From the UHGV virus genome UHGV-0103877: a stretch of DNA of 24,722 nt. One strand, written 5' to 3'. The stretch comes from a virus. Made by a program: the position numbers. Of the stretch, positions 15,001 to 18,000 are shown piece by piece. Each line of letters starts with the position of its first letter. Position 1 is the stretch's first letter.

Positions 15001-18000
15001 CGTCAAAGCATATACCATACGATGAATCTCGTATATCTGACGGTGACTTGCCAATAGCACTAAGTTGATTTCCATACTTTTTTACCATGTCGTTAGCCAT
15101 ATCCTGACAAACTTCATCAATGCTTTTACCCATGCCTGCAACATAAGGAGAAGCATCTTTTATTAAAGACATCATTTTTTCATTATCTTTGTCGGATGCA
15201 GCATAAGCTGCGAGTGATAGAAGAACGGAAGAAAATATTGCTATTGTGAAAAATCTGGATTTCATTCTTTCCCCTTGTAACGTTTCCTATGTTTGTATCC
15301 GTTAACTGAAGCAAAAGCACGCAGCGGTTAGTTTTGCGCAGGATACCAGATGATACTGTGTAGTTGGAGTAGTGCGGTTGCAATGCAAGCATTTTGTTTT
15401 TGTTTTATGCTTGCTTGTGTGTGTACAGTGCATATAATGCAAGCATACATCACAGTAAAGGTGCTTGCATTATGACTGAAAAGAAAAGTGGTGAAGGGAA
15501 AGCTAAGGGCGGGATCGCTCGCGCAAAGTCGCTGACTAAAGAGCAGCGTTCTGAAATAGCAAAGAAAGCAGCGGCTGCAAGATGGAAAAGTAAGATTCTC
15601 AGAGCAACTCATCGTGGTAACTTTTTAGATGATTTTGGCATTGATGCTGAATGTTATGTACTGGATGACGAGTCGAAAACTGTCGTTGTTACGAAAACTG
15701 GATTATCTCAGCTGCTAGGGATTGGTGAACATGCCAGGGATTTAGATCAACTGCTTGGCGCTCAGTATATGAGCAAATACCGAGATCTAGAATTGCAGCG
15801 AAAAATGGAAAATCCCTATAAATTTCAACTTACTTCGAAGTCTAAAACCGTTCATCAAGCGTTAGGTTATGACATTACAGCAATTGTTGATATTGGTAGG
15901 GCACTAATAGAAGCCAAAGATAATGACGATCTACCACAATCACGGTTAAAGGCCGCGGCTGCAGCGCAGAGACTTATTAATGCCTCCGCTAAGGCGGGAA
16001 TTAAGGGGGTTGCGTATGCGCTTGCTGGTTATCGTCCAGAAGTTCAGGCTGTCATTGACGAGTTCAAAGCGTTTGTTCGTGAAGAGGCTCGTCAATATGA
16101 AAAGGAATTTCCAGATGAGCTATACGAGGAGTGGTATCGACTGTACGGCCTGAATAGGCCAGAGAAAGGACGGCCTATTCGTTTTGGGCAGCTAACCAAC
16201 ATGCAGATATACACCCCGCTAGCAAAGAGTAAAGGTAAAATCCTTGAACAGATTCGAGCTAGCCGAGACGAGAACGGAAAACAATCTGATAAGTTGCACC
16301 TGTTCCTTTCTGAAATTGGTGTCAAGGCTTTGCGTCAGCATATCGGTAAGCTTCTTGGTGTCGCAGCGATGAGTGAGACAAGAGAAGAATACGAAAAAGG
16401 AATAGAAAAGGTTTTCGGAAGAATGAAACCAGAAATCTAATTATGAAACCCACCGTCAGGTGGGTTTTTTGTTTAGCAGTTCTCTCAACTTTTCGTTTTG
16501 CTCTCTGAACTTTTCCTGTATTTCTTTTTGCATGGCGATAACCTGGGCTTGAAGTTGAACTAGCGCATCAACATTTAGCGGAACTGAGACGCTGTTGATT
16601 TTGTCTGCTATTTCCCCAAGAGTATTTTCTGCATTCAAGGCATCTTCCAGTATCTGCACAATCTCTGAGTTCATAGAGCGCCCGTTTCGTTTGGCTCTCT
16701 CCGCAATCGCGTCCCTCATCCCGTCAGGGAAACGCACAACAAACTTTTCGTAATCTTTAACCTGCTTTTCAGCCATAACATCACCTCAAAAAAAACAATG
16801 ATGGCATATTGCTATTTATATTCAATGATGGCATATTGCTTTCAAGGCATAATGCCATTACGCAAAAAGGAGTGATCAATGGAAAAGAATGAAGTGAAGA
16901 CAACTCTTCGGTATCCGTACCGTTTTAAGGAGGAGGTGAAACGCATCGCTAAGGAAGAGGGGATGTCAGAAAACTCAGTGTTGGTTCAGGGACTTGCTTG
17001 GTGGTTGAAGTACCGGGAGAAAATGCGGAATGCTCTCTAAAAATAACGAAGCCCCGACAGCGGGAACTGGCGAGGCTTCTACATCAACAAATCTGATCGG
17101 GAAATATTGACATGAAAAGTATAGCAAAGGCACAAAACGATTTCACCATCTTCAAATTCGGCGACAGTGAAATCCGCGTCATCAACAAGTGCGGTGAGCC
17201 GTGGTTTGTAGCAAAAGATGTTTGTGATGCTTTAACTCTGACTAACTCACGCAAGGCACTTACTGCACTTGATGACGATGAAAAGGGAGTAACTTTAAGT
17301 TACACCCTTGGTGGTGAGCAGAATTTAAGCATTGTGAGCGAATCAGGTATGTATACATTGGTTCTGCGCTGCCGTGATGCCGTCAATAAAGGTTCAGTCC
17401 CGCACAAATTCCGCAAATGGGTGACAGCTGAAGTTTTGCCATCCATTCGTAAAACGGGGTCTTACGGAAATACACCGAAAGCTAAAAAGGCGTTGCCGGG
17501 TAAAATTACCACTGAACAGCAGGAAGCCATTAAACAACTCGTCATGAGTCGTGGTCAGTCTCTGCCAAAAGAAAAACAGGCGAAGGCGATGATCACCATG
17601 TGGTCGTCACTGAAATCTCATTTTGGGTGTTCATACAAAGAAATCAGTGAGGAGCAGTTTGCCGAAGCACTGTCACTTGCAGCTCGAGTTCCACTTGAAG
17701 GCGAGTTCGTCGGCAAACAAGAGAAGAAAACCAACGAGCTTTCTGCAAAAGAAGCAAACAGCCTTGTATGGTTATGGGATTATGCCAACCGTTCACAGGC
17801 ATTATTCCGCGAACTGTATCCGGCATTAAAACAAATTCAATCGAACTATTCCGGCAGATGCTACGACTACGGTCATGAATTCTCGTATGTTATCGGAATG
17901 GCGAGAGACGTTTTAATCAATCACGCACGAGATGTTGATATTAATGAGCCAGACGGACCAACGAATCTTTCCGCATGGATGAGACTTAAGAATAAAGAAT

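What the first reader, a model, noticed from the sequence alone, without database searches (positions are those of the whole stretch)
15383..16440. Unknown 322-aa protein under a periodic palindromic operator array
The promoter of this gene is embedded in four copies of a 10-bp element, arranged as two inverted pairs (ATGCAAGCAT ... 14 nt ... ATGCTTGCAT) whose same-orientation copies are exactly 54 bp apart, about five helical turns. The copies overlap a perfect TATAAT and a -35 candidate. That geometry suggests cooperative binding by a dimeric or tetrameric repressor and tight control, as expected for a toxic or abortive-infection effector. The protein has a basic Lys/Ala-rich N-terminus (GGIARAKSLTKEQRSEIAKKAAAARW) and a large C-terminal region I cannot place in any family. 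From memory the N-terminal motif resembles one seen in some phage proteins annotated as P63C-domain proteins, but I cannot verify that.
Basis: partly seen in the sequence, partly recalled or inferred. Interest (0 to 1): 0.7.

Follow-up and report, generated by a model that had tools for sequence, protein, structure and literature searches.

The report
Self-regulated P63C gene with ancient operator
A prophage gene of unknown role sits behind four copies of an 8-base DNA site, and the same four sites precede related genes in bacteria of at least eight phyla, often inside an IS1-type jumping gene, so the array is most likely the protein's own on/off switch.

Summary
Four sites with core TGCAAGCA/TGCTTGCA start at 15383, 15407, 15437 and 15461. 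Two are exact 10-mers and two differ by one base. They enclose a TTGCTT-16-TATAAT promoter and the spacer between ribosome-binding site and ATG of a 322-aa gene (15472-16440).

The gene is a Pfam P63C protein, with the domain at aa 199-286 rather than at the N-terminus. Its function is unknown.

The array is not local. In 118 loci from at least eight phyla the same four oriented sites recur at fixed spacing (about 23, 31 and 23 bp) while the spacers vary freely. A DNA-only scan of viral contigs found 58 arrays, all next to a P63C homologue. Homologues that lack the basic N-terminal motif ("ARW", my label; GGxARA..L..E.R..IA.KAA..RW) lack the array in 6 of 6 loci.

In 41 of 80 genome loci the array lies between this gene and a divergent IS1-family transposase. 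Those units have conserved terminal repeats and 8-bp target duplications.

Best reading: the protein represses its own promoter through this operator (inferred, confidence about 0.6). The E. coli copy is a stand-alone cassette in the P22 sieA slot. Nothing supports a toxic or abortive-infection role, and the Arc/Mnt neighbours are not the binders.

The parts
15328..16472 (+). Portable cassette: array, gene and terminator
   Evidence: The match ends are constant (query 29 to 1171-1175 of 15300-16480) across the listed full-length E. coli matches; 46 genomes hold at least 80% of the query. The same block is 98% identical in Lederbergvirus vB_EcoP-611R6.
15328..15382 (.). Left flank of the cassette. 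It is probably a decayed remnant of the leftward (transposase) promoter found in the IS1-borne relatives.
   Evidence: Inference. The stretch ..AGTAGTGCGGTTGCA before R1 resembles the conserved ..ACTTGAGCGGTaaaGCA block of transposon copies. No usable -10 remains on the minus strand.
15383..15392 (+). Site R1, ATGCAAGCAT (core TGCAAGCA), centred at about -57 from the predicted transcription start
   Evidence: It is conserved in nine transposase-less enterobacterial loci although their upstream flanks are unrelated.
15407..15416 (+). Site R2, ATGCTTGCtT in inverted orientation, containing the -35 candidate TTGCTT (15411-15416)
   Evidence: The TGCTTGCT variant is shared by most of the enterobacterial copies examined.
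15433..15438 (+). -10 hexamer TATAAT. The predicted transcription start near 15445 is inferred, not measured.
   Evidence: A TAnnnT hexamer abuts R3 in 61 of 118 loci.
15437..15446 (+). Site R3, ATGCAAGCAT, spanning about -8 to +2
15461..15470 (+). Site R4, gTGCTTGCAT, filling the gap between the ribosome-binding site (AAGG, 15458-15461) and the ATG at 15472
   Evidence: In most relatives the start codon overlaps the end of R4 (..TGCTTGCATG).
15472..16440 (+). CDS of 322 aa, a P63C-domain protein
   Evidence: Pfam PF10546, 52.7 bits against a cutoff of 26.1. phrog_2384 matches full length, E = 1.7e-104. 1682 homologues and 3028 representatives at 50% identity.
15508..15585 (+). N-terminal basic two-helix motif, aa 13-38, GGIARAKSLTKEQRSEIAKKAAAARW ('ARW motif', my label). 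It is the proposed operator-reading module.
   Evidence: Invariant residues are G, G, A, R, A, R, I, A, A, R, W. The motif co-occurs with the array. It is 97% identical between two E. coli copies whose remaining sequence is 42-57% identical. No Pfam or PDB match.
15598..15876 (+). Alpha/beta domain, aa 43-135, the best-modelled part (pLDDT 84-92)
   Evidence: AF2 model. Similarity to Bro-N and Ant-N phage proteins and to DnaD, DdrC and Dachshund folds is weak only. The profile comparison was not significant.
16066..16329 (+). P63C domain, aa 199-286
16445..16468 (+). Intrinsic terminator hairpin, shared with the convergent Mnt-like gene

Best explanation
The gene encodes a three-part protein: a basic two-helix N-terminal motif (ARW), an alpha/beta domain, and a helical P63C domain.

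The four oriented 8-10-bp sites are the family's own operator, and the gene's sigma-70 promoter is built into it. R2 carries the -35, R3 abuts the -10 and covers the start site, and R4 fills the spacer between ribosome-binding site and AUG. R1 lies about five helical turns upstream of R3.

The protein most likely binds these sites as an oligomer: one pair on R1/R2, one on R3/R4, bridged over about 55 bp. Binding would shut off its own transcription, giving low, buffered expression from the prophage.

In many other bacteria the same array is the two-way control region between this gene and a divergent IS1-family transposase inside a transposon. The E. coli copy is a stand-alone derivative, without transposase or terminal repeats, lodged in a prophage accessory-gene slot.

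- Shown: the array, its conservation, and its exclusive linkage to ARW-bearing P63C genes.
- Inferred: that the protein itself binds, that the ARW motif does the reading, and that the effect is repression.
- Unknown: what the P63C body does once made.
For: **1. Conservation.**
- 118 loci carry four sites in the order forward, reverse, forward, reverse. Start-to-start spacing is 23±1, 31-32 and 23-24 bp, and R1-R3 is about 55 bp.
- Spacers are unrelated.
- Exact cores number 162 in 13.7 kb upstream against 16 in 390 kb elsewhere.

**2. Sequence is conserved, not only pairing.** That points to recognition by a protein.

**3. Exclusive linkage.** A viral-contig scan using DNA alone found 58 arrays, and all 58 adjoin a P63C homologue of 25-81% identity. 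Only 2 of them have a transposase.

**4. Link to the ARW motif.**
- Distant homologues (26-34% identity) keep both the ARW motif and the exact array.
- All six ARW-less homologue loci have no core site.
- In two E. coli copies the N-terminal 38 aa are 97% identical and the upstream arrays near-identical, while the rest is 42-57% identical.

**5. Independence from neighbours.**
- 27 of 80 genome loci and all enterobacterial copies keep the array without a transposase, a small ARW gene or terminal repeats.
- In nine enterobacterial loci core columns are 87% pairwise identical and spacers 57%.
- This is the only ARW protein in the prophage.

**6. Site positions fit a repressor:** about -57, -33, -3 and +21.

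**7. No structure in the predicted mRNA.** RNA from the predicted start folds no better than shuffles (z = -0.8).
Against: - There is no binding or expression data of any kind.
- The ARW motif has no recognised DNA-binding fold, and its model confidence is only 57-70.
- The ARW-array co-occurrence would also arise if both simply mark 'stand-alone transcription unit', in contrast to operon-coupled copies.
- The promoter is inferred. The -35 is weak and the scanner did not call it.
- Because the arms never vary, an RNA or single-stranded DNA hairpin role cannot be excluded by covariation.
- In the transposon copies a second ARW protein and the transposase could also use the sites.
Confidence: 0.6

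Rival explanations
1. The inverted repeats act mainly at the RNA level. Transcripts that enter from upstream fold R1:R2 and R3:R4 (or R1:R4 and R2:R3) into hairpins that bury the start codon. Only transcripts from the gene's own promoter would then be translated, the same insulation trick used by IS10 and IS50.
For: - RNA 15380-15480 folds to -38.4 kcal/mol (z = -3.5).
- A 12-bp perfect stem (15434-15445 with 15462-15473) includes part of the ATG.
- The start codon overlaps R4 in most relatives.
- The family's home in transposons makes insulation plausible.
Against: - The 8-bp core is invariant across phyla rather than co-varying.
- R1 and R2 lie upstream of the promoter.
- The central AA/TT orientation is conserved.
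- The mRNA from the predicted start lacks R3 and is unstructured.
- No Rfam family matches.
- This role could coexist with the operator role as a secondary function.
Confidence: 0.12
2. The array is a res-like recombination site and the P63C protein is, or assists, a site-specific recombinase that resolves IS1-type cointegrates while also repressing both divergent genes. This would parallel the Tn3 arrangement of tnpA, res and tnpR.
For: - In 41 of 80 genome loci the array lies between a divergent IS1-family transposase and this gene.
- It consists of two inverted-repeat sub-sites of about 33 bp, 55 bp apart.
- From established knowledge, IS1 can form cointegrates, and Tn3 res sub-sites I and II are about 53 bp apart.
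Against: - The array and gene persist in 56 of 58 viral loci and in all enterobacterial prophage copies without any transposase.
- The promoter and start codon are embedded in the sites.
Confidence: 0.07
3. The sites are operators for the neighbouring Mnt-like and Arc-like ribbon-helix-helix repressors of the immI-like module.
For: An Arc-family gene lies convergent at 16456-16776, and arc and ant follow it.
Against: - The mnt-arc intergenic operators are CAATGATGGCATATTGCT twice plus an ATGGCATATTGC palindrome, and share no core with the array.
- The array is conserved in Klebsiella lambdoid prophages, in IS1-type transposons and in phages of other phyla that have no Arc/Mnt gene nearby.
Confidence: 0.02
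4. A host factor, or an ARW protein supplied in trans by another mobile element, occupies the sites, and the gene's own product does not.
For: Transposon copies encode a second, small protein (73-97 aa) carrying the same ARW motif.
Against: - This prophage has no second ARW gene.
- No host regulator is conserved across all the phyla that hold the invariant core.
- The array travels only with ARW-P63C genes.
Confidence: 0.06
5. On function rather than on the array: the protein is a toxic abortive-infection or exclusion effector kept under tight repression. This is compatible with the operator reading.
For: - Position only. The gene sits between gp16 and mnt, where P22 carries sieA. sieA, orf59a and mnt are adjacent in P22 (PMC10883804).
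- It follows cI-type S24 repressors in Klebsiella prophages and in three viral contigs.
Against: - No hit in PADLOC.
- No enzyme, nuclease, membrane or NTPase features are evident in the model or the searches.
- Being a routine partner of IS1- and IS1595-family transposases is not what one expects of a toxin.
- One E. coli copy is split by an IS5 and one is a deletion remnant, but this says nothing either way.
Confidence: 0.2

Closest known systems
Pfam P63C domain (PF10546) / PHROG 2384, phage proteins of unknown function
   Same: The protein matches both models above threshold. RefSeq already names it 'P63C domain-containing protein'.
   Different: The family entries give no function. None of the annotations, family libraries or searchable papers I consulted mention the N-terminal ARW motif, the operator array or the transposon link.
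Tn3-family tnpA-res-tnpR control region, where the resolvase represses two divergent promoters by binding repeated inverted sites between them
   Same: In the transposon relatives a repeated inverted-site array lies between the divergent transposase and the accessory gene, and its sites overlap both promoters.
   Different: The protein shows no recombinase fold. The E. coli copy has no transposase. The transposase is IS1-family, not Tn3-family.
IS1 InsA, a small element-encoded repressor of the transposase promoter
   Same: The relatives are IS1-family elements: ends of GGTAGTG.. type, 8-bp target duplications, and element-encoded DNA-binding-like regulators.
   Different: From established knowledge, InsA binds the terminal repeats. 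Here the sites are internal, unrelated to the terminal repeats, and tied to a 320-aa protein.
Phage operator arrays with cooperative repressor binding (lambda OR/OL; P22 Mnt and Arc operators)
   Same: Multiple phased sites overlap the -35 and -10, and a distal site lies about five helical turns away.
   Different: The operator sequence differs from the Mnt/Arc-type operators in this same window. The binder is presumed to be the regulated gene's own product. The core is conserved across phyla, unlike immunity-specific operators.
Bro-N / Ant-type phage regulatory (antirepressor) proteins
   Same: The top BFVD structural neighbours are Bro-N, Ant-N and 'repressor domain' proteins. From memory of Iyer, Koonin and Aravind (2002), P63C is found fused to such domains; the paper could not be opened.
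   Different: The matches are weak (E 3e-3 to 0.2, TM 0.3 or less on the query). There is no Pfam Bro-N hit and the profile comparison is not significant.

Membership tests
Pfam P63C (PF10546) | HMM score above the gathering threshold | tested here: met
   52.7 bits against a cutoff of 26.1, aa 199-286.
PHROG 2384 | Full-length profile match | tested here: met
   E = 1.7e-104, aa 6-321 against profile positions 4-328 of 338.
ARW-P63C genes with the TGCAAGCA array (defined here) | N-terminal GGxARA..L..E.R..IA.KAA..RW motif | tested here: met
   aa 13-38.
ARW-P63C genes with the TGCAAGCA array (defined here) | Four core sites in the order forward, reverse, forward, reverse at about 23, 31 and 23 bp, ending at the start codon | tested here: met
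   Window spacing is 24, 30 and 24 bp, inside the distribution of 118 loci.
IS1-family transposon carrying P63C (relatives) | Divergent IS1-family DDE transposase next to the array | tested here: not met
   There is none in the window or in the enterobacterial loci. It is present in 41 of 80 other loci.
IS1-family transposon carrying P63C (relatives) | Terminal inverted repeats GGTAGTGnnTCAGTTTGA with an 8-bp target duplication | tested here: not met
   No match with 5 or fewer mismatches around the window gene. In the relatives, 23 of 25 complete copies have perfect 8-bp duplications.
Arc/Mnt-controlled immI gene | Operator sequence shared with the mnt-arc control region | tested here: not met
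   The operators at 16796-16859 are GGCATATTGC-type. No TGCAAGCA core occurs there.
Bro-N domain proteins | Pfam Bro-N (PF02498) match or significant profile or fold similarity | tested here: inconclusive
   No Pfam hit even at E = 10. hhalign probability is below 2%. Foldseek BFVD hits are weak but mostly Bro-N/Ant-type.
Known anti-phage defence systems | Match to a PADLOC model | tested here: not met
   0 families at E ≤ 0.01.
Abortive-infection or toxic effector | Toxicity on expression, or phage resistance | not testable with these tools
   Needs cloning and plaque assays.
Site-specific recombinase with a res site | Serine- or tyrosine-recombinase catalytic fold | tested here: not met
Autoregulated repressor-operator pair | The gene product binds its own promoter sites and lowers transcription | not testable with these tools
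   Supported only by site positions and comparative linkage.
Known structured RNA | Rfam model at gathering score | tested here: not met
   The best match is 24 bits against 72 required.

The most novel reading that the evidence does not exclude
ARW-P63C proteins are a previously unrecognised class of DNA-binding regulators encoded by mobile elements, with a single operator word (TGCAAGCA) fixed across at least eight phyla. They would be dedicated partners of IS1/IS1595-superfamily transposases: divergent from the transposase across the operator in IS1-type elements, and in an operon downstream of it in IS1595-type elements. Temperate phages would have repeatedly captured the self-regulated module as a stand-alone gene. 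Because every copy reads the same operator, a resident copy could also silence incoming transposons or phages that carry the array, a form of cross-element immunity.
Probability: 0.3. Interest if true: 0.8.

Novelty: new variant of a known kind. Interest (0 to 1): 0.66.

Why it matters
P63C is a widespread phage and prophage domain with no assigned function. A profile of the family finds 3028 cluster representatives at 50% identity.

This analysis gives it a concrete, testable anatomy: a promoter built into a four-site operator, a candidate reading motif, and an unexpected home inside an active IS1-family transposon. That transposon has conserved ends and 8-bp target duplications.

An operator whose 8-bp core stays fixed while the protein drifts to 26-34% identity is unusual, and it offers a ready-made system for studying how a protein and its site are held together. 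If the protein regulates transposition, or excludes other elements that carry the same sites, it would link phage accessory ('moron') biology with transposon control.

For annotation, the array is a near-perfect DNA marker of these genes: 58 of 58 hits in viral contigs adjoined a homologue.

Tried and rejected
**Protein family and fold searches**
- PADLOC and NCBIfam gave no hit for the protein.
- PDB sequence search found nothing, either with the protein or with an ARW profile. The best ARW matches were a histone H2A tail (E = 1.7) and harmonin (E = 0.74).
- Foldseek against the PDB found nothing at E ≤ 1e-3.
- BFVD gave weak Bro-N/Ant-type hits only.
- The AFDB50 library was not available.
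- hhalign against the window's Ant protein, a KilAC antirepressor and a 29-sequence Bro-N profile was not significant.

**RNA**
- Rfam found nothing.

**Literature**
- Searches for P63C, ISMhu11 and IS1 passenger genes gave nothing relevant.
- Iyer et al. 2002 is not held.
- ISfinder and TnCentral could not be consulted. I therefore cannot say whether the transposon already has a name.

**Ideas rejected**
- Arc/Mnt as the binder.
- LexA control. Enterobacterial spacers carry TTGT-N8-ACAG, but the left half lacks the critical C and the window copy has N6.
- A sigma-54 promoter reading of TTGCA: no -24 element, judged by eye.

**Dead ends**
- H47 and H48, which looked like domain-swap variants, are a deletion remnant and an IS5-disrupted copy.
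- Comparing ARW residues with variant operators in the acidobacterial subfamily was uninformative, because every part of the protein and the transposase changes with lineage.
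Full report
**1. The observation**

The ORF with ATG at 15472 and stop at 16440 encodes 322 aa. RefSeq annotates the same ORF in E. coli WS4437A-1, whose DNA matched the query stretch (window 15300-16480) at 100%.

Upstream lie four related 10-mers:

| Site | Coordinates | Sequence |
|---|---|---|
| R1 | 15383-15392 | ATGCAAGCAT (exact) |
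| R2 | 15407-15416 | ATGCTTGCtT (one mismatch) |
| R3 | 15437-15446 | ATGCAAGCAT (exact) |
| R4 | 15461-15470 | gTGCTTGCAT (one mismatch) |

- TATAAT (15433-15438) shares its last two bases with R3.
- TTGCTT (15411-15416, inside R2) sits 16 nt upstream of it.
- That -35 is weak, so the consensus scanner did not call a promoter.
- R4 fills the gap between AAGG (15458-15461) and the ATG.
- A terminator follows the gene at 16445-16468.
- The motif is not enriched window-wide. Four copies in 88 bp has a corrected chance of about 1.6e-4.

**2. The protein**

- Pfam places a P63C domain at aa 199-286 (E = 6.8e-14).
- phrog_2384, of unknown function, matches full length.
- PADLOC, NCBIfam and PDB sequence searches give nothing.
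- An AlphaFold model built on 39 homologues has mean pLDDT 72.7. It shows two N-terminal helices (aa 11-39), a well-modelled alpha/beta domain (aa 43-135) and a helical remainder.
- Against predicted viral structures, the best but weak matches are mostly Bro-N, Ant-N and 'repressor domain' proteins.
- Profile comparisons with Bro-N are not significant.

I call it ARW (GGxARA..L..E.R..IA.KAA..RW). It has no Pfam or PDB match.

**3. Local context**

The window is a lambdoid prophage with a contractile-tail gene set. The gene lies between a tape-measure-like gene and a P22 immI-like module:
- a Mnt-like Arc-family gene at 16456-16776 on the minus strand;
- an Arc-like gene at 16879-17040;
- an Ant gene with Bro-N and P22_AR_C domains at 17112-18026.

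The block 15328-16472 behaves as a cassette.
- The listed full-length E. coli matches share the same ends (query 29 to 1171-1175), and 46 genomes hold at least 80% of the query. 88 of 5426 genomes hold some part of it.
- It is 98% identical in the P22-like phage vB_EcoP-611R6, between the DNA-ejection genes and mnt.
- P63C homologues occupy the same slot in other E. coli, Serratia and Providencia P22-like prophages.
- In P22 itself, sieA, orf59a and mnt were cloned together on one plasmid (PMC10883804); that sieA lies between gene 16 and mnt is from my own knowledge of the P22 map.
- In Klebsiella lambdoid prophages the gene follows the cI-type S24 repressor.
- Three of the twelve viral contigs whose neighbours I examined also place it beside an S24 repressor.

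**4. The array is ancient and specific**

Homologues of 45-50% identity occur in Pseudomonadota, Acidobacteriota, Myxococcota, Desulfobacterota, Bacillota, Verrucomicrobiota, Abditibacteriota and Binatia. Printing their upstream DNA showed the same four sites in nearly all of them, with unrelated spacers.

- Exact cores (TGCAAGCA or TGCTTGCA) number 162 in the 13.7 kb just upstream of the genes, against 16 in 390 kb of flanks.
- In 118 loci the order is forward, reverse, forward, reverse.
- Start-to-start spacing peaks at 23, 31-32 and 23-24 bp. R1-R3 and R2-R4 are each about 55 bp.
- A TAnnnT hexamer abuts R3 in 61 of 118 loci, and the start codon usually overlaps the end of R4.
- The window's spacing of 24, 30 and 24 bp is typical.
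- A scan of viral contigs with the DNA pattern alone returned 58 stretches. All 58 adjoin a P63C homologue of 25-81% identity.
- Homologues at only 26-34% identity still carry the ARW motif and the exact array.
- Six distinct loci of homologues that begin after the ARW position have no core site at all.
- Two E. coli copies share near-identical upstream arrays and N-terminal 38 aa that are 97% identical, while the rest of the protein is 42-57% identical.

The array and the ARW motif therefore travel as one module.

**5. The transposon**

In 41 of 80 genome loci a gene of about 290-310 aa diverges from the array.
- It is a distant IS1-family DDE transposase. Pfam DDE_Tnp_IS1 reaches its gathering score in some copies and falls just short in others, and the NCBIfam transpos_IS1 match is below its cutoff.
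- It carries an HTH or an InsA-type zinc ribbon. PGAP names it 'IS1 family transposase'.

In 25 loci a small convergent gene (73-97 aa) follows the P63C gene. It ends in the same ARW motif. One record annotates the gene in that position as 'histone H1' (its sequence was not checked).

The whole unit is bounded by inverted repeats, GGTAGTGnnTCAGTTTGAAAT. Of 25 copies with both ends in view, 23 have perfect 8-bp target duplications, and elements measure 2.3-3.8 kb. This is an active transposon family in which the array is the internal two-way control region.
- On the minus strand R1 supplies a -35 (TTGCAA or TTGCAT).
- A TATAAT follows 17 bp further on, ahead of the transposase. I read this from the sequences.

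Some ARW-less P63C genes instead sit directly downstream of IS1595-family transposases.

The E. coli cassette has neither transposase, terminal repeats nor small gene. The same is true of 27 of 80 genome loci and 56 of 58 viral loci. In enterobacterial copies the conserved unit begins at R1, often right after an unrelated terminator. Core columns are 87% pairwise identical there and spacers 57%. R1 is therefore kept for the gene's own sake.

**6. Mechanism**

The sites are centred at about -57, -33, -3 and +21 from the inferred start (about 15445). These are repressor-type positions.

The simplest account of three facts is that the protein binds its own operator. The facts are invariance of sequence rather than of pairing, exclusive linkage to ARW-P63C genes, and independence from every neighbouring gene. 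The ARW motif is the likely reader, and the protein likely binds as an oligomer bridging the two inverted pairs. I put this at about 0.6. No binding or expression data exist.

Rivals:
- **Arc/Mnt binding is rejected.** The mnt-arc operators at 16796-16859 are GGCATATTGC-type and unrelated.
- **An RNA role cannot be excluded as a second function.** A read-through transcript would fold strongly and bury the ATG (-38.4 kcal/mol, z = -3.5). The mRNA from the predicted start is unstructured (z = -0.8). No Rfam family matches.
- **A Tn3-like res/resolvase reading** fits the transposon layout. It lacks any recombinase fold and does not explain the solo copies.

What the P63C body does remains open. 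Its prophage slots suggest a lysogen-expressed accessory or exclusion function. Its partnership with IS1- and IS1595-family transposases suggests a DNA-level regulatory role. Nothing indicates toxicity.

**7. Novelty**

The gene family is known by name only. None of the papers I could search mentions the operator array, the ARW module or the transposon link. ISfinder could not be checked.

I class the finding as a new variant of a known kind: an autoregulated operator-promoter module, and a transposon with accessory genes. Its operator is unusually deeply conserved.

Noticed in passing
window 16456-18026: A P22 immI-like module sits between tail genes of a contractile-tailed lambdoid prophage. 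It comprises a Mnt-like Arc-family gene (106 aa, minus strand), an Arc-like gene (53 aa) and Ant (Bro-N plus P22_AR_C). Its own operators are CAATGATGGCATATTGCT twice (16796, 16823) and a palindrome at 16828-16858.
   Followed up: partly
window 14807-15265 (minus strand): A 152-aa ORF with a signal-peptide-like N-terminus lies upstream of and divergent from the P63C gene. It has no hit in Pfam, PHROGs, NCBIfam or PADLOC. Other P22-like prophages carry unrelated small minus-strand genes in this spot.
   Followed up: partly
L009-L076, e.g. L053:1452-3916 and L011:1973-4275: An IS1-family transposon of 2.3-3.8 kb occurs in many phyla. It carries a transposase, the array, ARW-P63C and a small ARW protein, with ends GGTAGTGnnTCAGTTTGAAAT. 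23 of 25 complete copies have perfect 8-bp target duplications. I found no name for it in the searchable literature.
   Followed up: yes
L159:306-2076; also L153 and L156: P63C homologues without the ARW motif lie immediately downstream of IS1595-family transposases in an operon-like arrangement, with no array. This is a second, independent link between P63C and this transposase superfamily.
   Followed up: partly
L013:3452-3685, L018:3965-4231; L152:1078-1287: The small convergent protein of the transposon ends in the same ARW motif as the P63C N-terminus. In one rhizobial plasmid the 69-aa gene in the corresponding position (L152) is annotated 'histone H1'; I did not inspect its sequence. 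GGKARA also resembles the histone H2A N-terminal tail, but not significantly (E = 1.7).
   Followed up: partly
L001, L004-L007, L084, L086, L087, L089 (R2-R3 spacers); window 15413-15428: Most enterobacterial copies carry TTGT-N8-ACAG or ATGT-N8-ACAG between the -35 and -10. This is LexA-box-like but lacks the critical C. The window copy has only six bases between the halves, so SOS control looks unlikely here.
   Followed up: partly
L083:2647-4704; L085:2502-2954: In E. coli GPEC1405 the P63C gene is split by an IS5. In MRE162 only the 3' half survives, joined to a DnaB-like pseudogene. The gene is therefore dispensable in some lysogens.
   Followed up: yes
L020, L024, L028, L030, L038, L043, L056: An acidobacterial subfamily replaces the array with a mirror-symmetric pair, TATACTTGCyCGGGCA and CGGGCAAGTATA, around back-to-back TTGACT -35 boxes. 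Its transposase gains an InsA-type zinc ribbon. The shared piece with the main family is GCAAG.
   Followed up: partly
window 13023-14798: A 591-aa tail gene matches PHROGs labelled endolysin, lytic tail protein and tape measure, and shares a region with a transglycosylase-labelled family. It ends 8 bp before the start of the accessory region.
   Followed up: no
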